32,000 nt of DNA from Candidatus Iainarchaeum sp. Its GTDB lineage: Archaea; Iainarchaeota; Iainarchaeia; Iainarchaeales; JACQJH01. The notes beneath the pieces are model-generated. The model was not told where the DNA came from. It did not search any database and saw nothing but the letters and a program-made list of their open reading frames with translations. Below, piece after piece: positions 1-23,385 of the stretch. The translations under genes and the position numbers were made by a program. The stretch's first letter is position 1, and each line of letters starts with the position of its first letter. Location of the stretch: contig JACQJH010000001.1 in the NCBI GenBank assembly GCA_016205145.1, positions 510,001-542,000 of the forward strand, read 5' to 3'.

Positions 1-597
1 ATGCTTACTGGCTTTTGGGTGCAATCCAAGACCAGAAGGAAGGCAAGCATGTCTTCGACCAGATTTAAAGGCGGGCAAAGCCTACATGCTTTTTTCGCAA
101 ACCATTTGCCTTCAACCCGCAACGCCCTGCCCCGCAAACGGTTAAGGCATTGCCAGCAAGGGAGTTTAGTAGAAAAGCCCCGCATTTGCCTTCAAGCCAA
201 GCAGGAGCGCGGGCGCAAAAGCCTTGCAGTTGAAATTAAGCCATGCCAACAAAAGATTAACCATGCTGGCTGCGCGTCCATAAAATCATTTGCGAAAATC
301 GCAAGCCAAAAGGGCAGGAGTTGTGAGGCCATTTCTCATTAAGGCCTTAACACTTTTGAAAAGCGTTGACGAATACAAGCCCTTTCCCGAAAACCCTTTC
401 GACTATTCCAGCCAGCCCCTTGTGCAGAAAAGCCCCACAGAAGGCTTCAAGGCTTTCCACTTCACCGGCGAAAAATGCCTAAAGAATAGTTCAACATATG
501 CAGCAAAAACATTGCGCTTTTGAAAAGTGTTTGCCTTTCAATCAAAAGCCTTCAACGCTTCTCTAAAGGGTCAATTGTTTTTCATTCATTTCTCGTT

Positions 598-1446
598 TTA
601 TTGGAGTTGCACTTCAATTGGAATTGCTATTTCTGGAGTGCCACAAATAATAGAATATGGCGTCACTGAGTTGTCAACTTGTCCAACACAAATGGTAACT
701 GAGCCTGCTTCATTCTGGCTTGTAGAGCCATAACTCGAATAAGCTATTTTTAGTACAGTGCTTTGTTTTGGTCTTAAATTATATAACTCATCTTCGAACC
801 CTATAATACCAACGTTATGCGATGTGCTATTAATTGACGTTCTAATGCCCTGCACCTCAAAATCAGAATCGTTTGTTATTGTAAGTGTTTTTTCATCCTT
901 ATAGACCGTTTCTTTGATACTTGGTTCGTTTGGATAAACCGGCATGCTTTTCGGAGTCAAATCAATTTTTTTCGGGGCGACTTCCAGTTTTATTTCTGGC
1001 GGTGGAATTTGGAATGTTTTGCAGTCGGATGAATTAGACACGCAATAACGGATAGGGGAAATTTCTAGAGACTCTGATTGCAACAGTATGCCAATGAGAG
1101 AAGCTGAACAAACACTTTGTGGTTCACAAGAAATAGTGGTTGGCAAAGAGTCCACCGCGCTAATGCTATCATAATATATATTTAGCTCAATAGCTTTACC
1201 TTCATTTGACTTATTTTCAAATTTTACCTCTGCTGTTCCAATGGGTCTTATATCTTGTTTTGCGCCTATCGCCGCCATATCAATTGGATAGATAGATTTC
1301 CAGTTTGCCCCTTTAAATTCAATCGAGTCTATTTTAGGTTGGGCTTGTTGGATACAGCCGGTTAAAAAAATTCCTGTCAAAAAGACTGCAATCAAGATTA
1401 GCAAAATATTCCGGCCAGGTCCTAATTTTTCCCAATTATTGTTCAT
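598..1446 (-). CDS. Putative lipoprotein / secreted Cys-containing envelope protein, no family recognised
   Basis: 282-aa ORF. The N-terminal hydrophobic stretch ILLILIAVFLTGIFLTGC ends in a lipobox-like LTGC. The remainder is Ser/Thr/Asn-rich, looks beta-rich and has six more Cys. It lies in the low-GC island. Confidence 0.6.
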   Translation of the reverse strand: MNNNWEKLGPGRNILLILIAVFLTGIFLTGCIQQAQPKIDSIEFKGANWKSIYPIDMAAIGAKQDIRPIGTAEVKFENKSNEGKAIELNIYYDSISAVDSLPTTISCEPQSVCSASLIGILLQSESLEISPIRYCVSNSSDCKTFQIPPPEIKLEVAPKKIDLTPKSMPVYPNEPSIKETVYKDEKTLTITNDSDFEVQGIRTSINSTSHNVGIIGFEDELYNLRPKQSTVLKIAYSSYGSTSQNEAGSVTICVGQVDNSVTPYSIICGTPEIAIPIEVQLQ

Positions 1447-1473
1447 TATACCACACTCTTATTGTCAAAACCC

Positions 1474-1500
1474 AGTATAAATATGTTACGTTACTGTTAC
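1474..1500 (+). promoter_or_regulatory. TATA-like box (agtataaata) followed by three tandem GTTAC units; candidate promoter/operator of the wHTH gene
   Basis: gttacgttactgttac at 1485-1500 sits directly after a TATAAATA box, in the 89-nt divergent intergenic region between ORFs 598-1446(-) and 1536-1784(+). Confidence 0.3.
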
Positions 1501-1535
1501 TCTGGCTTTAATTTAGGGGTTCAGTCACTAATTCT

Positions 1536-1784
1536 ATGTCTGAGTATGACCTGTTGGCGCAGATTAGGCGCGGCAAGATTAAACCCCAAATCCTTAAGCT
1601 TTTACAAGAACCAAAAACGCCAACAGACTTGAAAAAGATTATCGGAGCCCATAGAGAAACAATCAGCAGAGCAATACTCGAAATGGAAGAAAAAGGCCTA
1701 GTAACTTGTCTGAACCCAAAACAACCAAACTTTAGGTACTATCAAATTACAAACAAAGGAAAAAACCTATTGAAGAAAGTATGA
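1536..1784 (+). CDS. Small winged helix-turn-helix DNA-binding protein (ArsR/MarR-like)
   Basis: 82 aa. The segment KTPTDLKKIIGAHRETISRAILEMEEKGLV followed by NFRYYQITNKG fits an HTH plus beta-wing layout. ATG start. Confidence 0.65.
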   Translation: MSEYDLLAQIRRGKIKPQILKLLQEPKTPTDLKKIIGAHRETISRAILEMEEKGLVTCLNPKQPNFRYYQITNKGKNLLKKV

Positions 1785-1802
1785 GAATTTCTTATTTGCA
1801 CC

Positions 1803-2756
1803 CTAGTTAAGTAATTTTTCGCATTCTGCACTTGATTCACGCCATATACAAAATGTTACTTCTTTTTCTAGGGGGTATGACTGTTCTGTGCAATTTTCAC
1901 AATAGAGGGATACATTTAATTTGTGTAAGCCCACGGGGACGTTTTCTGGGTTACACTTTTGTTTATGTGCCCCGTCTGGCCTCTCGCTGCAGGCATTGAA
2001 TGAAATTTTCATATCTCTTTTTGTGCTTTCTAATCCGCTTAGGTTTTGGATAGTACTTTCTAGTATTTGTGGCCAGAAAATGCTATTTACGCCATTGCTG
2101 TCCTTCTCATTTGCAAGCATAGTAATTATTCCGGTATCTGTAATACCAAGATTTTGCAGTTTAAGTTTTAACCAACCGCCCGAGATTTGTTTATAATTCC
2201 CATTTTCATCAGTTTCAAATTTTGCTATTTCGCTGGCACTAAAAAATAAATCTGTTTTTTCGTCACCAAAACTTGTTTGCAAGTATGGAATGATATGTGG
2301 CGTTCTATCTAAAGTTGTGGCTAAAAGCCGTGTTTGATTCGACATCTCTTCAACTGTTTTCTTGTTTTCATTTAAAAAAGAGGCATTGAAGTATGCGCCC
2401 ACGAGAAGCGCGGCTAGAGTTATTACTGCAACTACTTTTGAAATATTTAAAGAAAAATTCGCAATCTTTGAATTTTCTTCTGCTTTGTCAGCTAGTTTTT
2501 TTGCCGATTCTGCAATTTGTTTTGTTTCTTCCACCATACTTTTTGTTGCAGCTATATTTCTATCTTGTCTTTCTAGTGAGTGCCAAAATTTTCTTTTATT
2601 ATCTTCGGCTTTGAAAGGCTCAGCCCTGCTATCTGTGAGTTTGTAGGCAAAACGAACAACTAATTCGACTTCTTCGTCTGTGCAATCGGACATGTTTCTT
2701 TTGCCAGTCACTACACTGTTAGCAATCTCAATAGCTCTGTTTTCGTCACTGAGCAT
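1803..2756 (-). CDS. Bitopic membrane protein: charged helical cytoplasmic N-domain, one TM, ectodomain with a C-terminal six-Cys module
   Basis: ORF 1803-2765. The first ATG is at 2756 (MLSDEN...). The TM segment is VVAVITLAALLVGAYF. The KQIAESAKKLADKAEENSK stretch looks like coiled coil. The C-terminus has C at NAC, KC, YC, NC, FC and EC. It starts 14 nt downstream of the preceding ORF. Confidence 0.6.
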   Translation of the reverse strand: MLSDENRAIEIANSVVTGKRNMSDCTDEEVELVVRFAYKLTDSRAEPFKAEDNKRKFWHSLERQDRNIAATKSMVEETKQIAESAKKLADKAEENSKIANFSLNISKVVAVITLAALLVGAYFNASFLNENKKTVEEMSNQTRLLATTLDRTPHIIPYLQTSFGDEKTDLFFSASEIAKFETDENGNYKQISGGWLKLKLQNLGITDTGIITMLANEKDSNGVNSIFWPQILESTIQNLSGLESTKRDMKISFNACSERPDGAHKQKCNPENVPVGLHKLNVSLYCENCTEQSYPLEKEVTFCIWRESSAECEKLLN

Positions 2757-2770
2757 AAAAATCAATTAAA

Positions 2771-3331
2771 CTATGTTAAATCAAGTAAGTCCGTTTTGTT
2801 AGCAAGGTTGAGTAGGCCAGTGGAAAAAACCCAAGACGCAATCGCTAATGTGCCAAGTCCTGCCACTGCCAATATAACTTTGGCGATAAAAATTACTTGT
2901 GCTACAATAACCTGATTACTAAACAGCAACATTAATTTTACTAGAGGACTTTGATTAAACTCAGTTGTCGATAAATAAATTGTAGCATTAAAAAAAATTA
3001 ATCCGAAAATAAAAAGAATGGTGGAAGTAAAAAAGTTTTTTCCAGATTCTGTCGCAATTGTCTTTTGTTTTTTTTCATTCACTGCTCTGCTAAATTCAAA
3101 ACTTAGGAGGCTAAATGTTGTTGAAACAACAATTGCTGCTTCCCATAGCACGAAATATTCGGCAAATTCGTTCAATCTATTTATGTCTGGAATTAATCTA
3201 AGGATAAACGCAAATATTGCCAACGTAACTAAGCCGGCAATCATAACTGCCGACAATTTAATGGCAATTTTTATAATTTTGTTTATTTTTTTCTTAATAT
3301 TGGACTTGTCGAACTTTTTCAATAAAAACAC
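2771..3331 (-). CDS. Polytopic (about 4 TM) membrane protein, no family recognised
   Basis: 186-aa ORF with four long hydrophobic segments and a Lys-rich N-terminus. The start is GTG at 3331; an alternative ATG lies at 3244. Confidence 0.55.
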   Translation of the reverse strand: MFLLKKFDKSNIKKKINKIIKIAIKLSAVMIAGLVTLAIFAFILRLIPDINRLNEFAEYFVLWEAAIVVSTTFSLLSFEFSRAVNEKKQKTIATESGKNFFTSTILFIFGLIFFNATIYLSTTEFNQSPLVKLMLLFSNQVIVAQVIFIAKVILAVAGLGTLAIASWVFSTGLLNLANKTDLLDLT

Positions 3332-3377
3332 CTATTAATTTGGTTGAAATTTACGATTCAAATACGAAAATCAACAA

Positions 3378-4115
3378 TTATACTTTCAAAATGTATTGTT
3401 TATCCTTCTTTGTCCAGCGGCCTTTTAGGATTATTGGGTGCGCTCCTTTTTCGACATATTTGCCAGAATAATAGTTTAAATCTGCGCTTTCTCCAACGTC
3501 TAAAATTGCTACAATCAAGTCAGGATAAAAGTTTGTATATTCTTCTATTTGTGCCATTAGATTTCGCAAAACATTGTTGTTTTTTGCTATTTTGACTTCA
3601 ATGCCAATTCTTCTGTTTATGACCATGTCTATTTTTTCGCCATGCTCTAATGGCACTTCAGGTTCAACCTGCCAATGCGGTTTGCTTGCTTTTAACAATG
3701 TTTCCAAAACAAATGACAATTCCCGTTCATTTTGAAAAATTCTATCAGACTCAAATTTTTTTAATATCCCAAGTATTTCTAACACTTCTGAATCAATTGG
3801 TGTTTTTCTTTTGTAAACCCACAAATTAGCCCATTTATCAATACGCTCCATATCGGCCATAAGTCCTTTGAAAAAAGACACTGTTGGTATTGATAATAGG
3901 AATAATCCTAAAAGCAAGCTCAATAGGCTACTAACAAAATCTGTTTTGAACCCACCCCAACCAAAAATTCCAGCTAAACCCAAAAATACCGATATGACAC
4001 CAATAGCTAGTAAAACAACAAAAAGTTCTGTTTTGGTTATCTTTTTTTGTCGTTTTGAGGGTGTGTTATTCCATGTATTTTTAGGCCTGCGCGCAAATGA
4101 TTTGAACCTGCCCAT
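3378..4115 (-). CDS. Membrane-tethered PD-(D/E)xK (RecB/Cas4-like) nuclease-fold protein
   Basis: 245 aa. It has a basic N-terminus and two TM helices. The soluble domain then carries the ordered motifs NERELSFVLE, GEKIDMVI (D163), IGIEVK (E173-x-K175) and QIEEY (Q189-x3-Y193). A BRE/TATA-like box at 4138-4152 ends 22 nt upstream of the ATG. Confidence 0.6.
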   Translation of the reverse strand: MGRFKSFARRPKNTWNNTPSKRQKKITKTELFVVLLAIGVISVFLGLAGIFGWGGFKTDFVSSLLSLLLGLFLLSIPTVSFFKGLMADMERIDKWANLWVYKRKTPIDSEVLEILGILKKFESDRIFQNERELSFVLETLLKASKPHWQVEPEVPLEHGEKIDMVINRRIGIEVKIAKNNNVLRNLMAQIEEYTNFYPDLIVAILDVGESADLNYYSGKYVEKGAHPIILKGRWTKKDKQYILKV

Positions 4116-4137
4116 CTGCCAAAATTATGTCCTTCTA

Positions 4138-4152
4138 GTTAAAAAGTTTTTC
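4138..4152 (-). promoter_or_regulatory. BRE/TATA-like promoter box (minus strand reads GAAAAACTTTTTAAC)
   Basis: It ends 22 nt upstream of the ATG at 4115. The identical 15-mer occurs at 14641-14655, upstream of the GT2 gene. Confidence 0.45.
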
Positions 4153-4221
4153 GGCATTATTGGCTGTGGCTTTAAAGTTGTAGGTTGCATTTGAGCATTT
4201 AACAATTCAGTACAAGCAGAG

Positions 4222-4365
4222 TTAAAGTTCTCGCAATTCATAGTTTCCGGTCTTGTTTAAAACCCATTCTAGCTTTTGTCCGGCTTGCCAGCCTTTGGCC
4301 TTGACAAGCGGTGGCGCGATTGTGAGAACAAACGCCCCGCTTTGGTGTTGTTGGAGTTTTGGCAT
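4222..4365 (-). CDS. Small AbrB/SpoVT-like (swapped-hairpin) DNA-binding protein; not in the supplied ORF track because it is under 60 aa
   Basis: Hand translation gives MPKLQQHQSGAFVLTIAPPLVKAKGWQAGQKLEWVLNKTGNYELREL (47 aa, stop TAA at 4222-4224). The TIAPPLVKAKGWQAGQKLEW stretch resembles the AbrB/MazE motif (T-I-P-x-x-h-x-x-x-h-G-h-x-x-G-D/Q-x-h). A TATA-like aatataaag lies about 20 nt upstream of the ATG on the minus strand. Confidence 0.4.
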   Translation of the reverse strand: MPKLQQHQSGAFVLTIAPPLVKAKGWQAGQKLEWVLNKTGNYELREL

Positions 4366-4545
4366 TTCGGTTCACCAAAAAAACTTTATATTAGTATTGA
4401 CATTATATAAGATATAAAAGCAGGGGTTATAACGTAGAATTGTAATCAATCAGAACGCATTTTTTTATTTCGGCTACCCCGCATCATAATCTGATTCGTC
4501 ACTTGTGCATGGTCGTATTTTCTCTGGTTAATTTTTTTGGCGGCC

Positions 4546-4569
4546 AAAAGTTCTACGCGTAGAACTTTT
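4546..4569. promoter_or_regulatory. Perfect 24-bp palindrome AAAAGTTCTACG/CGTAGAACTTTT; candidate DtxR/MntR-type operator overlapping the mntR promoter
   Basis: I read it directly and both arms are exact reverse complements. The right arm runs into a TATA-like CTTTTTAAGC (4565-4574) that ends 22 nt upstream of the mntR ATG at 4597. Confidence 0.5.
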
Positions 4570-4596
4570 TAAGCTTATCTGTGTTCATAGTGCTTT

Positions 4597-7568: not shown

Positions 7569-8815
7569 TTTTCACGCCTTTCGCTTATTTTGAAAACGCG
7601 CTTGACTTCCCTGATTCCGTCAACGAGCGCCTGCACGTCATCCAAATCATTGTAAACGTAAAAGCTCGCCCTGGCAGTGCCGACAATTCCCATTTCATCC
7701 ATCAGCGGCTGGGCGCAGTGGTTGCCGCTCCTTATCGCAATGCCCTTTTCGTCCAGGACAGTTGAAACGTCGTGCGGGTGCACGCCTTTCACGTTGAAGG
7801 AAATTATTCCAAGCTTGTGCCTTGGTTCCGGGCCGTAGATTTCAACGCATGGAATGCGTTCGATTTCTGATGTCGCCTTTTCAAGCAGTTTTTTTTCGTG
7901 CCTTTCAATGCCGTCAAAGCCGATTTTTTCAAGGTAATCTATCGCGGCCGCCAAGCCTATTCCGCCGGAAATGTTCGGCGTTCCGGCTTCGAACTTCCAT
8001 GGCAATGAATTCCACGTGCTTTTTTCGAATGAAACCGTTTTTATCATGTCCCCGCCCGTAAGGAACGGGGGCATGCTTTCAAGCAATTCCTCTTTTCCGG
8101 AAAGCACGCCTATGCCGGTCGGCCCGAGCATTTTGTGGCCGGAAAACGCGCAGAAGTCCGCTCCGGTTTTTTTCACGTCGAGTTTCCTGTGCGGCACAAG
8201 CTGTGCGGCATCGAGAATCGTGGTTGCACCCGCATCCTTTCCCATGCGTGAAAGCCTTTTCACGTCATTGAGGGTTCCAAGCGCGTTTGACGCGCCGGTA
8301 AAAGAAAATATTTTCGGCTTGTGCGAAAGCTTTTCCTCCAGGTCTTTTTCGTCGAGCCTGCCCTCTCGCGTGACGTCAACCCATTCCAGCTTTACGCCTT
8401 TTTCCTTCAATTGCTGCCATGGCACTATGTTGGAATGGTGCTCAAGCTTTGTGATGAGGACGCGGTCGCCTTTTTTGAGCAGCATTTTGGAAAGAGAGTG
8501 GGCCAAAACGTTCAATGATTCGGTTGTGTTGCGCGTGAAGACTATTTCCTTCCAGCTGTTGGCGCCGATGAATTTCGCGGTCTTTTCGTGCGCCTTCTCG
8601 TACAGTTCGGAGCTTTCAAGGCTCAGTTCATATGCTCCGCGATGCACGTTCGCATTCGTGTTCCTGTAATATGCGCTTATCGCGTCGATGACCTGCAAGG
8701 GTTTCTGCGTCGTCGCGGTGTTGTCAAGATAGACAAAGCGGTGGCCGTTGATTTTCCTCTGAAGAATGGGAAAATCTTTCCTGATTTTTTTGACGTCGAG
8801 TGCCATATGATTCAT
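7565..8815 (-). CDS. sufS: Cysteine desulfurase, SufS (class V aminotransferase)
   Basis: 416 aa. It has the PLP-lysine context SGHKMLGPTGIGVL and the active-site RSGNHCAQPL. Confidence 0.92.
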   Translation of the reverse strand: MNHMALDVKKIRKDFPILQRKINGHRFVYLDNTATTQKPLQVIDAISAYYRNTNANVHRGAYELSLESSELYEKAHEKTAKFIGANSWKEIVFTRNTTESLNVLAHSLSKMLLKKGDRVLITKLEHHSNIVPWQQLKEKGVKLEWVDVTREGRLDEKDLEEKLSHKPKIFSFTGASNALGTLNDVKRLSRMGKDAGATTILDAAQLVPHRKLDVKKTGADFCAFSGHKMLGPTGIGVLSGKEELLESMPPFLTGGDMIKTVSFEKSTWNSLPWKFEAGTPNISGGIGLAAAIDYLEKIGFDGIERHEKKLLEKATSEIERIPCVEIYGPEPRHKLGIISFNVKGVHPHDVSTVLDEKGIAIRSGNHCAQPLMDEMGIVGTARASFYVYNDLDDVQALVDGIREVKRVFKISERREK

Positions 8816-12728: not shown

Positions 12729-13487
12729 CTATCTTTTGCCTCTGCTTCCGCCTCTTGCGCCGTGCTGTGGGCGTGAGCTTTGAATGGATGCGCGCGCATC
12801 CCTTGCGGGCGCCTTGTACCTGCTGGTTGTGTCGGGCCTGTATCCTGAGTCATTGCGGATTTTAAGGTTTGCCAAAATTGTGGGAAAACTGCTTTTGGTT
12901 TCTCTGATGGTCATGCGTATGTTGGGGTTTCCTTTCATGAACGGCCTTACAGTTTCCAGTATTTCCCGGCCTGCCCCGAGATACGGCCTGGCATTTTGCC
13001 ATGCCCTGTCCCGCACCTGGTTTGGCGTGCCTGAAAGCGCTATGAGTTCGGCGGCCAGAAAAAACTTTAATGGCGGCATGTTGTGTGCTCTGCAGAAACC
13101 GTGGATTTTTGCGACGTCCGGCACGCTGAACCTGCGCTTGTAAACATCCACGCTGCAGAACTCCATGTCGCCGGAATAAGTGTTTGGCCCGGTTGCGGCC
13201 ATTGCGCCTCTAATCTGTTCCTCGTACGGCGGCGCTATGGGTGGTGTGCCGATTGTTCCGGGCGAAGTATGCCATTCCTCTTGCGCTCGTTCGGCCGGCT
13301 CAGCACTTTTTGCCGGCGGTTTTGGTTGGACGGGGCTTTGCGATTGTTCCGGTATATTGCGAAGGAGTAATGCGCCTGTGGTTGCTATGATTGCGGCGCG
13401 GGCGAGTCTTCTGCCGCGCGAGGCACGCACTCGTGCCCGCACTTTTGGCATTCTTTGCAAGCGCTGTGATGGTGTGGGTCTGGCCAT
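12729..13487 (-). CDS. Hypothetical exported protein with a possible twin-arginine signal
   Basis: The ATG at 13487 (MARPTPSQ...) lies 23 nt downstream of the box at 13511-13525. SRGRRLARAAIIATTGALLL resembles an RR-plus-hydrophobic Tat signal. It has a Pro-rich linker and a basic C-terminal tail. No family recognised. Confidence 0.45.
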   Translation of the reverse strand: MARPTPSQRLQRMPKVRARVRASRGRRLARAAIIATTGALLLRNIPEQSQSPVQPKPPAKSAEPAERAQEEWHTSPGTIGTPPIAPPYEEQIRGAMAATGPNTYSGDMEFCSVDVYKRRFSVPDVAKIHGFCRAHNMPPLKFFLAAELIALSGTPNQVRDRAWQNARPYLGAGREILETVRPFMKGNPNIRMTIRETKSSFPTILANLKIRNDSGYRPDTTSRYKAPARDARASIQSSRPQHGARGGSRGKR

Positions 13488-13510
13488 GAGTAGAATAAAC
13501 ACTTACCCCC

Positions 13511-14620: not shown

Positions 14621-14640
14621 GACAGAATATGCCTTTGTCA

Positions 14641-14655
14641 GTTAAAAAGTTTTTC
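14641..14655 (-). promoter_or_regulatory. BRE/TATA-like promoter box (minus strand reads GAAAAACTTTTTAAC)
   Basis: It ends 20 nt upstream of the ATG at 14620. This 15-mer is identical to the one at 4138-4152. Confidence 0.45.
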
Positions 14656-22457: not shown

Positions 22458-22694
22458 ATGGAAATCAGGTTTGTGCGGCATGCGCTTGAACGGATACGGG
22501 TCTATGGGATTTCCGCCGGATTTGCCGAAAACTGTCTGAAAAAACCCGATAGAATTTTTGATGGAAAGAACGGCCGCAAAATCGCCCAGAAAAGGTTAAA
22601 TGGCTATGTAATGAGAATTATTTACGAAGAAAAAGAGCATTCGCTTACAGTAATAACCGTCTACAAAGCAAGGGCTGAAAGGTATGAAATATAA
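22458..22694 (+). CDS. DUF4258-family protein (toxin-like partner of DUF2283)
   Basis: 78 aa. MEIRFVRHALERIRVYGIS...IAQKRLNGYVMRIIYEEKEHSLTVITVY matches the characteristic DUF4258 pattern. It overlaps the next ORF by 11 nt. Confidence 0.7.
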   Translation: MEIRFVRHALERIRVYGISAGFAENCLKKPDRIFDGKNGRKIAQKRLNGYVMRIIYEEKEHSLTVITVYKARAERYEI

Positions 22695-22884
22695 GTACGA
22701 CAAGGAATCCGACATTCTGCTAGTTTCACTTGGCAATGAAAAGCCGGACTTTGCCGAACAGAAAGGCAACATCATAGCGCACTATTCCAAGGACAGAAGA
22801 CTCGTTGAAATTGAAATCCTTGACGCTGGCAGAACAACAGCCAAAATGCGCAACGCCGTCCTGGAACAAGCAGCGAATGCATGA
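22684..22884 (+). CDS. DUF2283-family protein (antitoxin-like partner)
   Basis: 66 aa. MKYKYDKESDILLVSLGNEK...RRLVEIEILDAG matches the characteristic Y-D-x-E-x-D-x-L ... G-h-E-I-L pattern. Confidence 0.7.
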   Translation: MKYKYDKESDILLVSLGNEKPDFAEQKGNIIAHYSKDRRLVEIEILDAGRTTAKMRNAVLEQAANA

Positions 22885-22957: not shown

Positions 22958-23030
22958 GGGCCTGTAGCCTAGCGGATAAGGCGCCTGCCTTCTAAGCAGG
23001 AGATCGGGGGTCCGAATCCTCCCAGGCCCG
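22958..23030 (+). tRNA. tRNA-Arg (anticodon TCT), no intron, CCA not encoded
   Basis: I folded it by hand. The acceptor stem is GGGCCTG/CAGGCCC. The D stem is GCCT/AGGC. The anticodon stem is CCTGC/GCAGG with loop CTTCTAA. The variable region is AGATC. The T stem is GGGGG/CCTCC with loop TCCGAAT. The discriminator is G. A TATA-like CCTTTTAAAC (22917-22926) lies 31 nt upstream. Confidence 0.9.
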
Positions 23031-23277
23031 CTTTCGCGCGGGCGTGACGAAACTGACGTGCCTTGCGCGGCAAGGCACCGCGTATGCCGATTAAAGCTTC
23101 AGGGGGTTGCAAGGGGCGAATGCCCCTGCGCGCAAATCCTCCAAGGCCCGAGCCGTCGCGTCCGGCTGGTGCGAACCAAGGCGTTCTGCTATCGCAGAAC
23201 GCCGAGTATGCAAAAATGCGCTTTCGTGCGGATGGTGCGAAACTGGGGCATCCGCGCTTCGCGTGACAGCCAGTATT
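23028..23277. repeat. Three tandem degenerate copies (about 23028-23087, 23155-23211, 23218-23277) of a ~60-nt unit: GCTTTCG - GTGnCGAAAC - 9-10 bp hairpin - GnGTATGC
   Basis: Hand alignment. The hairpins are gtgccttgc-gcg-gcaaggcac (23058-23078) and ggcgttctgc-tatc-gcagaacgcc (23180-23203), plus an imperfect one in copy 3. The stem sequences differ between copies but pairing is kept. Confidence 0.55.
23135..23150 (+). repeat. 16-nt direct copy of the tRNA-Arg 3' end (AATCCTCCaAGGCCCG versus AATCCTCCcAGGCCCG at 23015-23030)
   Basis: 15/16 identity read directly, lying exactly 120 nt downstream of the original. There is no matching 5' acceptor strand, so it is not a second tRNA. Confidence 0.6.
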
Positions 23278-23385
23278 CTTTTGCAATGCTTTCATGCGCA
23301 TGGCTGACTAATGCATTATTGTTAAACCGCAATACGCCGAGCAAACTAATTTTGTAAATAAACGGACCGTGCTCTGTCTCGCCGG

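What the first reader, a model, noticed from the sequence alone, without database searches (positions are those of the whole stretch)
570..4215. Sharply AT-rich island encoding only envelope proteins plus a small regulator
Hand counts of sampled 60-nt lines give 20-43% GC inside the island (lines at 1021, 2401, 3241, 3661). Three sampled lines outside (9001, 20041, 28501) each give about 57%. The encoded proteins switch from Ala/Arg/Gly-rich to Lys/Asn/Ile-rich. All five island ORFs are membrane or secreted proteins, apart from one wHTH. I see no integrase, transposase or clear flanking direct repeat. The island gene at 4115 uses a 15-mer promoter box identical to that of a core GT2 gene (14641-14655). 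That argues against a very recent, unadapted insertion. Possible explanations are an old horizontally acquired surface/defence cassette, a degraded provirus, or a host-interaction locus.
Basis: seen in the sequence. Interest (0 to 1): 0.65.

Follow-up and report, generated by a model that had tools for sequence, protein, structure and literature searches.

The report
AT-rich cargo of integrated archaeal element
The AT-rich island is real. It is the far end of a roughly 10-kb mobile element that an integrase inserted into a tRNA-Leu gene of a tiny DPANN archaeon, so it is an ordinary kind of feature in a host group where such elements are barely documented.

Summary
Window 575-4215 has 35.7% GC against 51.2% for the rest, and GC3 of 0.30-0.41 against 0.58-0.68. 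Core membrane proteins keep host composition.

Two independent public assemblies are 100% identical to the window and extend 5.6 kb to its left. They show tRNA-Leu(GAG), then an intact tyrosine integrase, then about a dozen small ORFs.

The last 11 nt of the tRNA (GCTACCCCGCA) recur once in the window, at 4473-4483, between the island and mntR. Collinear inverted repeats lie just inside both ends. This delimits a 9,957-bp integrated element, and the island is its internal, least host-like module.

The module encodes:
- a lipoprotein-like protein;
- a small wHTH;
- a bitopic protein with a Cys-rich tail;
- a 4-TM protein;
- a membrane-anchored PD-(D/E)xK nuclease, so not only envelope proteins.

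The nuclease's closest relative is also a lone AT-rich gene in another mid-GC archaeal genome. The two ORFs searched in the large protein database have no homologues.

Virus, plasmid or cryptic element cannot be decided. Verdict: a new member of a known kind, of moderate interest.

The parts
1..68 (+). 3' end of a 174-aa element ORF that starts 456 nt left of the window. It belongs to the element's backbone operon.
   Evidence: Gene called on L078 at 3044-3568(-), which equals window -456..68. Frame +3 of the window ends in a stop at 66-68. There is no Pfam or PHROG match.
69..597 (.). A 529-nt non-coding spacer inside the element, with backbone-like GC of about 0.47. It forms the left border of the AT-rich module. 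It may be a regulatory or origin region, or a decayed gene.
   Evidence: No clean reading frame. The near-palindrome CTTTTGAAAAG occurs at 353-367 and 517-531, and CATTTGCCTTCAA(C/G)CC at 103 and 183. No Rfam match. Fold z-score is -1.1.
598..1446 (-). 282-aa lipoprotein-like surface protein. It has an N-terminal hydrophobic helix ending in LTGC, a beta-rich ectodomain and 7 Cys.
   Evidence: One TM segment at 14-32. GC3 is 0.31. No match in Pfam, PHROG, PADLOC or NCBIfam. No phage or IMG/VR match. The single-sequence AF2 model shows a helix then beta strands, but pLDDT is only 49.
1447..1535 (.). Divergent promoter region between the 282-aa gene and the wHTH gene. It holds TATAAATA at 1476-1483, TTTAATTTA at about 1507-1515, and three GTTAC repeats (1485-1500) lying between them as a candidate operator.
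   Evidence: Read directly from the sequence. The operator role is inferred.
1536..1784 (+). 82-aa winged-helix DNA-binding protein, the likely local regulator.
   Evidence: Pfam HVO_A0261_N 6.3e-7, plus many wHTH families. It matches the C-terminal wHTH of Csa3/CasR/CARF models at 6e-8 to 4e-5. phrog_2440 transcriptional regulator scores 2.3e-8.
1803..2765 (-). 320-aa bitopic membrane protein (317 aa as called in public data). It has a charged N-terminal part, a TM at about 108-130, and a C-terminal ectodomain of about 190 aa with a Cys-rich tail. It is the last gene of the nuclease operon.
   Evidence: TM segment and 7 Cys. The only hit among 5.8 billion proteins is the protein itself. No family or phage match.
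2771..3331 (-). 186-aa polytopic membrane protein with 4 hydrophobic segments.
   Evidence: TM segments at 26-44, 60-78, 100-118 and 141-159. No family, phage or IMG/VR match.
3378..4115 (-). 245-aa membrane-anchored PD-(D/E)xK nuclease. It has a basic N-terminus, two TM helices, an amphipathic helix and a C-terminal nuclease domain (residues about 105-240) that is predicted to face the cytoplasm.
   Evidence: phrog_28707 'nuclease' at 2.3e-13. The family has 140 representatives. E130, D163, E173 and K175 are invariant in 40 sequences. 7 of 40 members hit Pfam REase_DpnII-MboI, and others hit PDDEXK_9 or PDDEXK_3. The AF2 domain has pLDDT 96-98 and an alpha-beta-beta-beta-alpha-beta core. BFVD fold matches are PD-(D/E)XK nucleases. 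TPV1 gp26 'nuclease' matches at 30% identity, 8e-9.
4137..4151 (-). BRE/TATA promoter of the nuclease operon (AAAAACTTTTTAACT on the minus strand), 22 nt upstream of the ATG.
   Evidence: An identical 15-mer lies at 14640-14654. The same core AACTTTTTAA precedes mntR at 4563-4572. Upstream regions of host genes show the same consensus.
4222..4365 (-). 47-aa AbrB/SpoVT/MazE-like small DNA-binding protein. Its GC (0.48) is backbone-like, and it is the last gene before the element's right end.
   Evidence: phrog_661 at 1.3e-5. The NCBIfam MazE match is weak, at 0.0046. TPV1 has an AbrB gene two genes upstream of its homologous nuclease.
4414..4464 (.). Right subterminal inverted-repeat motifs: ATAAAAGCAGGGG (4414-4426) and CAGAACGCATTTTT (4451-4464). 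They are the reverse complements of CCCCTGCTTTTAT and AAAATTGCGTTCTG, which lie just inside attL. They are candidate integrase-binding sites.
   Evidence: Collinear local alignment scores 28, against 14.4 +/- 2.2 for shuffles, with 0 of 2000 reaching it. The direct-orientation control scores 16.
4473..4483 (+). attR core GCTACCCCGCA, a direct repeat of the last 11 nt of tRNA-Leu(GAG) at attL. It marks the right end of the 9,957-bp element.
   Evidence: It is the only copy in the 32-kb window on either strand, with 0.03 expected by chance. It is the longest match to the tRNA 3' half anywhere between the integrase and mntH.

Best explanation
The AT-rich island is the internal cargo module of a 9,957-bp integrative mobile element. 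The element sits in the 3' end of a tRNA-Leu(GAG) gene of a DPANN archaeon, most likely from Micrarchaeota.

Order of the element in window orientation:
1. tRNA-Leu (attL).
2. An intact class-II (pNOB8-type, YxxR) tyrosine integrase with a C-terminal zinc ribbon.
3. Two tiny 2-TM ORFs.
4. A protein resembling the DNA-binding 'recombinase' domain of a serine recombinase.
5. An RHH/CopG protein.
6. About eight small ORFs, of which the four largest have no convincing family match.
7. A 529-nt spacer.
8. The AT-rich module (window 598-4115).
9. An AbrB-like gene.
10. Subterminal inverted repeats.
11. The attR core at 4473-4483, followed by the host genes mntR and mntH.

Mechanism:
- Shown: the parts and their arrangement.
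- Inferred from the family: a circular form recombines through an 11-bp identity with the acceptor-stem end of the tRNA, which rebuilds the tRNA.
- Shown: the composition of the AT-rich module (GC3 0.30) is far from both the host (0.63) and the element backbone (0.42-0.61), and the module is flanked on both sides by backbone-like sequence.
- Inferred: the module was acquired by the element later, from an AT-rich donor, probably a roughly 30%-GC DPANN lineage or its mobile elements.
- Inferred: the module is expressed from ordinary archaeal BRE/TATA promoters as two units. One is the operon nuclease, 4-TM protein, bitopic Cys-rich protein. The other is the divergent pair of wHTH and lipoprotein-like gene, with GTTAC repeats as a candidate operator.

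My best guess at function is inference only. I read it as an accessory module that serves the element. It would remodel the cell surface and hold a PD-(D/E)xK nuclease at the inner face of the membrane. There the nuclease would cut incoming foreign DNA, giving superinfection exclusion or defence.
For: Contiguity:
- Logan contigs L078 and L079 come from two sequencing runs. They are 100% identical to the window over 3.1-3.4 kb and to each other, and they extend 5,645 nt to the left.

Integrase and tRNA target:
- tRNA-Leu(GAG) is immediately followed by a 373-aa tyrosine recombinase.
- The recombinase scores Pfam PF00589 27.7 bits against a cutoff of 27.1, and phrog_1 integrase 1.2e-14.
- R165, K192, R258 and Y290 are invariant in an alignment with two relatives. 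The motif is YMSR, that is YxxR.
- It matches XerA weakly and the integrase of a pleolipovirus at 22.5% identity over 80% of its length.

Element ends:
- The tRNA's last 11 nt occur once in the window, at 4473-4483 on the same strand, in the 231-nt gap between the element's last gene and mntR. Only 0.03 copies per window are expected by chance.
- Two inverted-repeat motifs occur in the same order just inside both ends. The alignment score is 28 against shuffles of 14.4 +/- 2.2, with 0 of 2000 reaching it.

Composition:
- The mosaic of GC and GC3 values across the element is shown.

Foreignness:
- No island gene occurs in 73 related loci.
- The 245-aa and 320-aa proteins have no homologue in the word-indexed search of 5.8 billion proteins.
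- The nuclease family's members at native composition sit in roughly 30%-GC archaeal contigs. The closest homologue (P0003) is a single-gene AT-rich islet, with GC 0.285 in a 0.49-0.58 background.

Literature:
- Archaeal integrases prefer tRNA 3' ends, restore the tRNA, and can use att sites as short as the acceptor end (PMC8371274).
- Integrated elements mixed with defence and membrane proteins are the typical content of archaeal 'dark matter islands' (PMC4158269).
Against: - The att core is only 11 bp.
- No empty site (attB) or circular junction (attP) was found. JGI metagenomes gave none and IMG/VR gave none. All three public samples carry only the integrated form.
- Relatives in GTDB are too distant (MntH at most 76% identity) for a synteny test. 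In one relative, ribosomal-protein genes follow tRNA-Leu(GAG).
- No replication, capsid or conjugation gene was recognised, so the type of element is unknown.
- The exclusion or defence role has no direct support. PADLOC matched nothing except the wHTH.
- The nuclease orientation is inferred only from the positive-inside rule and two predicted TM helices.
- The host phylum rests on one gene, MntH.
Confidence: 0.67

Rival explanations
1. The whole 10-kb element is a provirus of an undescribed enveloped (pleomorphic or spindle-shaped) virus of Micrarchaeota. Under this view the AT-rich module is its structural module: the lipoprotein-like and Cys-rich bitopic proteins act as spikes, and the 4-TM protein as an internal membrane protein.
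For: - The size (10 kb), the many tiny ORFs and the RHH and AbrB regulators fit small archaeal viruses.
- The integrase's only hit among 50,697 virus records is a pleolipovirus integrase. The two share a C-terminal zinc ribbon.
- Short att sites at the acceptor end of a tRNA are known for the pleolipovirus SNJ2 (PMC8371274).
- The nuclease has a homologue in the spindle-shaped virus TPV1, which also has an AbrB gene close by.
- Four of the five module proteins are membrane proteins.
- Two further 2-TM mini-proteins lie next to the integrase.
Against: - No similarity to VP3-like or VP4-like proteins, Rep or the NTPase of the pleolipovirus, nor to any other TPV1 protein.
- No PHROG structural or packaging hit.
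- No match in IMG/VR or in the phage collection for the 282-aa and 186-aa proteins. The 320-aa protein matched nothing in the phage collection, and the 200-aa protein matched nothing in IMG/VR.
- A structural module would be expected to share the backbone's composition. This one is the part least like the backbone.
- One of its genes, the nuclease, occurs alone as an islet in another genome.
Confidence: 0.2
2. The island is an independent horizontal insertion that merely lies next to an integrase-bearing element or a chromosomal recombinase. Under this view the 11-bp match at 4473 is chance, and the element really ends left of about 575.
For: - The att core is short.
- The compositional break at about 575 is sharp.
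- The 529-nt spacer at 69-597 could be an element end.
- A 9-nt match, CCCCGCAAA, to the attL junction lies at window 130.
Against: - The 11-mer is unique in 32 kb, on the correct strand, and sits exactly where composition returns to host values.
- The segment to the right of the island (4216-4472) has backbone-like GC. It carries both inverted-repeat motifs that match the attL side.
- The 9-mer at 130 includes element-side bases of attL, which a true attR would not share. Matches of 8-9 nt are frequent here.
Confidence: 0.08
3. The island is a native, fast-evolving surface or host-interaction locus of the DPANN cell. Its AT-richness would then reflect local mutational or selective effects rather than transfer.
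For: - DPANN genomes carry lineage-specific surface proteins.
- The module uses host-type promoters.
- It is identical in three samples.
Against: - GC3 differs from the host by about 0.3 in all five genes, including the soluble wHTH and the nuclease domain. Host membrane proteins keep host GC3.
- The tetranucleotide distance is far above any core segment (0.633 against a core maximum of 0.180).
- The locus lies inside att-bounded DNA next to an integrase.
- The nuclease's relatives sit at native composition in roughly 30%-GC genomes.
Confidence: 0.03
4. The island is an assembly chimera, in which AT-rich DNA from another organism was joined into the Micrarchaeota contig.
For: Short-read assemblies of all three public runs break inside the island, at 3092-3391, or fail to span it.
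Against: - The left junction at about 575 is spanned by L078 and L079. The right junction at about 4215 is spanned by L001 and L002. These are independent assemblies of two runs, each 100% identical to the window.
- L079 ends at 3378 and L001 starts at 3297, so the two overlap across the break region.
- The breaks coincide with the AT-richest stretch, including the 20%-GC line at 3241. That fits a coverage or low-complexity effect.
Confidence: 0.02

Closest known systems
Archaeal integrated mobile elements with class II (pNOB8-type) tyrosine integrases in tRNA genes. Examples are the 9.5-kb ArcVen-P3 in tRNA-Ser (PMC4158269) and the iMGEs of Thaumarchaeota (PMC6563490). The field is reviewed in PMC8371274.
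   Same: - The integrase gene is intact after integration and lies next to the tRNA.
- The motif is R...YxxR...Y.
- The target is the 3' end of a tRNA, which is rebuilt on integration.
- Direct repeats lie at both ends.
- The size is about 10 kb.
- Most genes have no recognisable function.
   Different: - The att core is only 11 bp. ArcVen-P3 has 55 bp, although the review notes that att sites as short as the acceptor end occur.
- The host is a DPANN (Micrarchaeota-like) archaeon.
- The integrase carries a C-terminal zinc ribbon.
- No replication or structural hallmark gene was recognised.
- The internal compositional mosaic is strong.
Pleolipoviridae proviruses, for example Geoglobus acetivorans pleomorphic virus 1 (BK065156.1) and SNJ2.
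   Same: - It is a small integrating genome of 10-13 kb.
- The integrases are related (22.5% identity over 80% of the length) and share a zinc ribbon.
- A membrane-protein module is present.
- SNJ2 also uses a short att site at the acceptor end of a tRNA.
   Different: - No VP3-like or VP4-like protein, Rep or NTPase homologue is present.
- The membrane-protein module has a composition foreign to the rest of the element.
Thermococcus prieurii virus 1 gp26. It is annotated as 'nuclease, distinct subfamily of RecB family nucleases' and has a neighbouring AbrB/MazE gene, gp28.
   Same: - The PD-(D/E)xK domain is homologous (30% identity, 8e-9).
- An AbrB-fold gene lies upstream on the same strand.
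   Different: - TPV1 gp26 has a soluble N-terminal domain in place of two TM helices.
- A zinc-finger gene lies between AbrB and the nuclease in TPV1.
- No other genes are shared between the two.
Archaeal 'dark matter islands' (Makarova et al. 2014, PMC4158269).
   Same: It is a cluster of narrowly distributed genes that combines an integrated mobile element, a PD-(D/E)xK nuclease of the virus- or plasmid-associated type, and predicted membrane or secreted proteins.
   Different: - That survey predates DPANN genome sampling.
- I did not test membership of its arCOGs (arCOG07102, arCOG09441).

Membership tests
tRNA-integrating archaeal element with class II (pNOB8-type) tyrosine integrase | It encodes a tyrosine recombinase with catalytic residues R...K...(Y/H)xxR...(H/W)...Y. 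| tested here: met
   - PF00589 scores 27.7 bits, against a cutoff of 27.1.
- phrog_1 integrase scores 1.2e-14.
- R165, K192, R258, G279 and Y290 are invariant in A3.
- YMSR corresponds to YxxR, and GH occupies the H/W position.
- The consensus is taken from PMC8371274.
tRNA-integrating archaeal element with class II (pNOB8-type) tyrosine integrase | The integrase gene stays intact after integration and lies beside one att site. | tested here: met
   The 373-aa ORF is uninterrupted and starts 61 nt after the tRNA 3' end (L078 7403-8524 against the tRNA at 8586-8668).
tRNA-integrating archaeal element with class II (pNOB8-type) tyrosine integrase | Direct repeats bound the element, and one of them overlaps the tRNA gene. 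| tested here: met
   The 11-nt GCTACCCCGCA lies at the tRNA 3' end and at window 4473-4483. It is unique in the window, with 0.03 copies expected. Subterminal inverted repeats support the assignment. The repeat is short.
tRNA-integrating archaeal element with class II (pNOB8-type) tyrosine integrase | Mobility is demonstrated by an empty attB site in relatives or by a circular attP junction. | tested here: inconclusive
   - The attB junction is absent from JGI metagenomes.
- The attP junction is absent from IMG/VR.
- All three public samples show only the integrated form.
- GTDB relatives are too distant for the comparison.
- The raw reads could not be searched.
Pleolipoviridae provirus | It has a VP4-like spike or fusion protein and a VP3-like membrane protein. 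| tested here: not met
   tblastn of all 19 element proteins against GacPV1 found only the integrase. There are no PHROG structural hits. Sequence methods could miss very remote homology.
Pleolipoviridae provirus | It has a conserved NTPase and/or a Rep protein. | tested here: not met
   No P-loop, Rep or primase family appears in the Pfam or PHROG scans of the ten largest backbone ORFs or of the six ORFs in the window. Two 2-TM mini-ORFs and a 36-aa ORF were not scanned. The largest unassigned ORFs are 200 and 174 aa.
PD-(D/E)xK nuclease superfamily (245-aa protein) | The catalytic motif E...(P)D...(D/E)xK lies on an alpha-beta-beta-beta-alpha-beta core. | tested here: met
   - E130, D163, E173 and K175 are invariant in 40 family members.
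- In the AF2 model, H130-144, E150-155, E161-166, E170-176, H180-193 and E199-206 form the core at pLDDT 96-98.
- BFVD hits are PD-(D/E)XK nucleases at probability 1.0.
- PDB hits are weak: CdiA-CT, EcoT38I and T7 endonuclease I.
PD-(D/E)xK nuclease superfamily (245-aa protein) | It matches a curated family model above threshold. | tested here: not met
   The query itself matches Pfam DpnII-MboI only at E 0.036, with 14 bits against a cutoff of 27. 7 of 40 relatives match it at up to 7e-6. phrog_28707 matches at 2.3e-13. It is a divergent family of its own.
PD-(D/E)xK nuclease superfamily (245-aa protein) | It has nuclease activity on a defined substrate. | not testable with these tools
   This needs biochemistry.
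Known anti-phage defence systems (PADLOC-DB 2.0) | The proteins match models of a described system. | tested here: not met
   Only the wHTH matches, and it matches the generic wHTH part of the Csa3/CasR/CARF models. The other five proteins have no hit.
Type II toxin-antitoxin pair (AbrB/MazE antitoxin plus nuclease toxin) | An adjacent, co-transcribed small antitoxin and toxin that are inherited together. | tested here: inconclusive
   The AbrB-like ORF lies 106 nt upstream on the same strand. Its MazE match is far below threshold, at 17 bits against 130. The nuclease has its own promoter. The two genes also differ in GC, 0.48 against 0.35.

The most novel reading that the evidence does not exclude
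The element is a provirus of an undescribed family of membrane-enveloped viruses that infect Micrarchaeota. A 2026 survey of 1,356 Micrarchaeota genomes detected no provirus at all (PMC13573593). Under this reading the AT-rich module supplies the envelope and host-recognition proteins, and it has been swapped in from viruses of AT-rich DPANN hosts.

A second, compatible novelty is the membrane-tethered PD-(D/E)xK nuclease. It may be a self-standing, horizontally hopping exclusion or defence gene, because it also turns up as a lone AT-rich islet in a second mid-GC archaeal genome.
Probability: 0.2. Interest if true: 0.7.

Novelty: new member of a known kind. Interest (0 to 1): 0.4.

Why it matters
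Mobile elements of DPANN archaea are poorly known, and Micrarchaeota most of all. A recent genome-wide survey found no provirus in 1,356 Micrarchaeota genomes (PMC13573593). Hallmark-based tools would miss an element like this one because nearly all its genes lack a recognisable function.

This element has defined ends, a known tRNA target and an integrase family that also occurs in a pleolipovirus. It therefore gives a concrete handle for finding more such elements. One could search for zinc-ribbon integrases next to tRNA genes, together with a repeat of the tRNA's acceptor end.

The element also shows a mid-GC element importing an unameliorated AT-rich module. That module includes a membrane-anchored nuclease that also appears as a single-gene islet elsewhere. 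This hints at gene flow between AT-rich and mid-GC DPANN lineages.

None of this changes how such elements are understood in general.

Tried and rejected
Searches that found nothing:
- Word-indexed homologue searches for the 245-aa and 320-aa proteins returned only the proteins themselves.
- A profile search with the nuclease alignment in the same database returned only 3 proteins.
- PADLOC, NCBIfam and Pfam gave nothing for the 282-aa, 320-aa and 186-aa proteins.
- IMG/VR scans found no relative of the integrase, the 200-aa ORF, the nuclease alignment, or the 282-aa and 186-aa proteins.
- The JGI metagenome scan for the integrase found no relative.
- The attB empty-site pattern and the attP pattern gave no match.
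- Phage-collection tblastn for the 282-aa, 320-aa and 186-aa proteins gave no match.

Tests that were inconclusive:
- Synteny test in 73 MntH-bearing loci: only mntR-mntH is conserved.
- tRNA scan of 30 related loci: tRNA-Leu(GAG) lies near mntH only in L070, with ribosomal-protein genes in between.
- Single-sequence AF2 of the 282-aa protein gave pLDDT 49, which is unusable, so I ran no fold search on it.
- PDB Foldseek with the full-length nuclease model gave only weak hits. They mix clamp-loader hits with PD-(D/E)xK hits, probably because of the long N-terminal helices.
- Sequence searches of the nuclease against the PDB found nothing meaningful.
- Rfam and folding of the 69-597 spacer found nothing.
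- Contexts of two more nuclease homologues lie on contigs too short to inform.

Ideas considered and rejected:
- A membrane-protein composition effect.
- An assembly chimera.
- The motif GCCTTCAA as iterons. It occurs 13 times in the window, with only three copies in the first 570 nt and the rest scattered through the core, mostly on the plus strand.
- Flanking repeats bounding the AT-rich module itself. None was found.

Full report
**1. The observation**

A sliding-window profile shows a block of 32-39% GC from about 500 to 4250. The background is about 51%. Measured precisely, window 575-4215 has GC 0.357 and window 4484-32000 has 0.512. For 500-nt windows outside the island, the mean is 0.513, the sd 0.026 and the minimum 0.434. 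Inside, the maximum is 0.392.

The drop is strongest at third codon positions. GC3 is 0.30-0.41 in the five island genes and 0.58-0.68 in core genes. The core set includes the polytopic transporter MntH (0.62) and a 549-aa membrane protein (0.64). The idea that membrane proteins are simply AT-rich is therefore rejected. Tetranucleotide distance to the core is 0.633 for the island, against 0.159 +/- 0.014 for core segments of equal size. The island is 92% coding, in five intact ORFs.

**2. The host**

MntH, just right of the island, is 70-76% identical to proteins of Micrarchaeota MAGs and some MAGs labelled Aenigmatarchaeota. No species representative in GTDB is closer. The source contig is 612,963 bp. 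Promoters are of the archaeal BRE/TATA type. The host is thus a DPANN archaeon, probably Micrarchaeota. The phylum call rests on one gene.

**3. What lies outside the window**

Exact-protein look-ups found short-read contigs from three related runs, SRR12113383, SRR12113384 and SRR12113385. They are 100% identical to the window. Two of them, L078 and L079, come from different runs. They run 5,645 and 4,220 nt beyond window position 1 and agree with each other.

In window orientation this DNA holds the following:
- tRNA-Leu(GAG).
- Sixty-one nt later, a 373-aa tyrosine recombinase. It scores PF00589 27.7 bits against a cutoff of 27.1, and phrog_1 integrase 1.2e-14.
- Two 2-TM mini-ORFs.
- A 150-aa protein that resembles the DNA-binding 'recombinase' domain of serine recombinases (phrog_7701, 4.5e-7).
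- An RHH/CopG protein.
- About eight small ORFs, of which the four largest have no convincing family match.
- A 174-aa ORF that ends at window 68.

**4. The element's ends**

The last 11 nt of the tRNA, GCTACCCCGCA, occur exactly once in the 32-kb window, at 4473-4483. The copy is on the same strand and lies in the 231-nt gap between the last AT-side gene and mntR. Only 0.03 copies per window are expected by chance. It is the longest match to the tRNA's 3' half anywhere between the integrase and mntH.

Just inside both ends lie two motifs in inverted orientation and in the same order. They are AAAAnTGCGTTCTG and CCCCTGCTTTTAT. The local alignment scores 28, against 14.4 +/- 2.2 for shuffles, with 0 of 2000 reaching it. 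The direct-orientation control scores 16.

The core-to-core distance is 9,957 bp. This arrangement is the standard picture for archaeal integrated elements: an intact integrase beside a tRNA, a repeat of the tRNA 3' end at the far side, and a rebuilt tRNA. The review of archaeal tyrosine recombinases notes a preference for tRNA 3' ends. It also notes att sites as short as the acceptor end (PMC8371274). A 9.5-kb example in tRNA-Ser is described in PMC4158269.

**5. The integrase**

I aligned the integrase with its two detectable relatives. These are the integrase of Geoglobus acetivorans pleomorphic virus 1 (22.5% identity over 80% of the length) and one in a Micrarchaeota MAG (L038). The alignment shows invariant R165, K192, R258 and Y290. 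The motif YMSR stands where the relatives have HxxR. A C-terminal CxxC...CxxC zinc ribbon is shared. R...YxxR...Y is the pNOB8-type consensus, and an integrase gene that stays intact defines class II (PMC8371274). The protein matches XerA only weakly.

**6. The island within the element**

The element is a compositional mosaic:

| Segment | Measure | Value |
|---|---|---|
| Integrase | GC3 | 0.58 |
| Patch from about -4,000 to -3,288 | GC | 0.34-0.38 |
| Central small-ORF operon | GC3 | 0.42-0.61 |
| Spacer 69-597 | GC | about 0.47 |
| Island | GC3 | 0.30-0.41 |
| AbrB-like gene plus right terminal repeats | GC | about 0.48 for the gene |

The island thus has backbone-like sequence on both sides and lies inside the att-bounded DNA. 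It is the part least like both host and backbone. I read this as a later acquisition by the element, which is an inference.

**7. The island's genes**

- Gene 598-1446(-) encodes a 282-aa protein. It has one N-terminal hydrophobic helix ending in LTGC, which is lipobox-like, followed by a beta-rich region.
- Gene 1536-1784(+) encodes an 82-aa winged-helix protein. It is transcribed divergently from the 282-aa gene. Three GTTAC repeats (1485-1500) lie between the two TATA-like boxes.
- Three genes follow one another on the minus strand with gaps of 46 and 5 nt. They sit behind the promoter at 4137-4151.
  - Gene 3378-4115 is the nuclease.
  - Gene 2771-3331 encodes a protein with four TM segments.
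  - Gene 1803-2765 encodes a bitopic protein with a Cys-rich C-terminal tail.

Neither the 245-aa nor the 320-aa protein has any homologue in the word-indexed search of 5.8 billion proteins. No island gene occurs in 73 related loci.

**8. The 245-aa protein is a membrane-anchored nuclease**

- An exhaustive HMMER scan found 140 representative relatives, all through residues of about 105-240.
- In an alignment of 40 of them, E130, D163, E173 and K175 are invariant. This is the PD-(D/E)xK signature.
- Seven of the 40 match Pfam REase_DpnII-MboI, and others match PDDEXK_9 or PDDEXK_3.
- The query matches phrog_28707 'nuclease' at 2.3e-13.
- AlphaFold with this alignment gives pLDDT 96-98 for the domain. 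The core is alpha-beta-beta-beta-alpha-beta and carries those residues.
- Fold matches in BFVD are PD-(D/E)XK nucleases at probability 1.0. PDB matches are weak.
- The N-terminus is basic and is followed by two TM helices. By the positive-inside rule the nuclease domain should therefore face the cytoplasm. This is an inference.
- Many relatives have the same TM-plus-nuclease layout. Others have a soluble N-terminal domain, among them gp26 of the spindle-shaped Thermococcus prieurii virus 1 (30% identity, 8e-9). In TPV1 an AbrB/MazE gene lies two genes upstream. In this element an AbrB-like ORF (4222-4365, phrog_661 1.3e-5) lies directly upstream.

**9. Where the module may come from**

Four contigs carry P0005, the closest full-length relative, and another carries P0011. 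All have about 30% GC, and there the gene has native composition (0.28-0.29). Neighbours such as NMD3, FtsZ and a beta-CASP nuclease mark the P0005 contigs as archaeal.

The closest relative of all is P0003, with 50% identity in the domain. It sits in a 0.49-0.58 GC archaeal genome as a single-gene islet of 0.25-0.30 GC, with the same basic-plus-TM N-terminus. The gene has thus entered at least two mid-GC archaeal genomes while still looking AT-rich. This fits recent transfer from AT-rich DPANN lineages or their mobile elements.

**10. The promoter argument**

The 15-mer is identical at 4137-4151 and 14640-14654. On the coding strand it reads AAAAACTTTTTAACT, a purine-rich BRE followed by a TATA box. 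The same core precedes mntR and several other host genes at 22-30 nt from the start codon. Any archaeal mobile element must use this consensus, so it does not date the insertion.

**11. What kind of element it is**

No replication, packaging, capsid, spike or conjugation gene was recognised. Apart from the integrase and the nuclease, nothing matches the pleolipovirus or TPV1. Nothing matches IMG/VR or the phage collection. I therefore call it an integrated mobile element of unresolved type. The provirus reading stays open at about 0.2.

Its mobility is not shown. No empty site or circle junction was found in the collections I could scan. All three samples carry only the integrated form.

**12. 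Comparison with what is known, and verdict**

This is a textbook archaeal 'dark matter island', combining an integrated element, a nuclease and membrane proteins (PMC4158269). It is carried by a class-II integrase element in a tRNA gene (PMC8371274). The modestly new points are these:
- The host group is one in which a 2026 survey found no provirus among 1,356 Micrarchaeota genomes (PMC13573593).
- The gene content has almost no recognisable function.
- The element contains an unameliorated AT-rich cargo module, including a membrane-tethered PD-(D/E)xK nuclease that also occurs alone as an islet elsewhere.

I rate it a new member of a known kind, with interest 0.4.

Noticed in passing
window 22458-22884, next to tRNA-Arg(TCT) at 22958-23031: A DUF4258 (2.3e-7) and DUF2283 (2.2e-11) gene pair, overlapping by 11 nt. 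Pairs of these families are usually read as toxin-antitoxin systems. It sits in the only other lower-GC patch of the window (0.42-0.44), just upstream of a tRNA-Arg(TCT) gene. That tRNA is among the most frequently used integration targets in archaea (PMC8371274). It may be a remnant of another mobile element.
   Followed up: partly
window 69-597: A 529-nt stretch inside the element with no clean reading frame. It holds two copies of the near-palindrome CTTTTGAAAAG (353-367 and 517-531) and two copies of CATTTGCCTTCAA(C/G)CC spaced 80 nt apart. There is no Rfam hit, and folding is not unusual (z = -1.1). Its role is unknown. It could be an origin, a regulatory region or a decayed gene.
   Followed up: partly
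L082 9900-10650 (GCA_030688545.1, contig JAUYHT010000002.1): The closest homologue of the island's nuclease is a single-gene AT-rich islet, with GC 0.25-0.30 in a 0.49-0.58 background. It lies between an FtsZ gene and a VTT-domain membrane protein gene. No integrase or tRNA lies beside it. A DUF4411 and Peptidase_M78/HTH gene pair lies about 2.5 kb away.
   Followed up: partly
left of the window, about -4,000 to -3,288 (L078 6400-7100): This is a second AT-rich patch in the element, with GC 0.34-0.38. It encodes a 58-aa 2-TM protein. On the opposite strand it encodes a 150-aa protein resembling the 'recombinase' DNA-binding domain of serine recombinases, without a catalytic domain (phrog_7701, 4.5e-7).
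   Followed up: partly
L038 2401-3606 (Micrarchaeota MAG LacPavin_0419_WC90_MAG_54_17): A 401-aa integrase of the same zinc-ribbon family lies about 6 kb upstream of that genome's own mntR-mntH pair. Lower-GC DNA (0.45-0.48) lies on its far side. No tRNA was found in the locus. I did not examine whether this is another integrated element.
   Followed up: partly
window 1485-1500: Three GTTAC repeats lie between the two TATA-like boxes of the divergent promoter region. They are a candidate operator for the 82-aa wHTH.
   Followed up: no
window 3092-3391: The short-read assemblies of the two public runs that reach this stretch end their contigs here, and the third run's contigs do not reach it. 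It is the AT-richest part of the island and includes a 60-nt line with 20% GC. Two of the contigs carry 19 nt of unmatched sequence at the end that falls in this stretch, and four carry such a tip at one end overall. This looks like a coverage or low-complexity effect rather than strain variation.
   Followed up: partly
window 23328-23341, and 5.6 kb left of the window (L078 8729-8742): The 14-mer CGCAATACGCCGAG is shared between two places. One is a hairpin (GGCGTATTGC...GCAATACGCC) about 60 nt upstream of tRNA-Leu. The other is a site about 300 nt downstream of tRNA-Arg. It may be a repeated terminator-like element.
   Followed up: no
window 12729-13502 and 22969-23301: Two long ORFs have odd composition: GC2 of 0.55-0.63 and a G/A/R/P fraction of 0.41-0.52. 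The second overlaps the tRNA-Arg gene. Both are probably not real genes.
   Followed up: no
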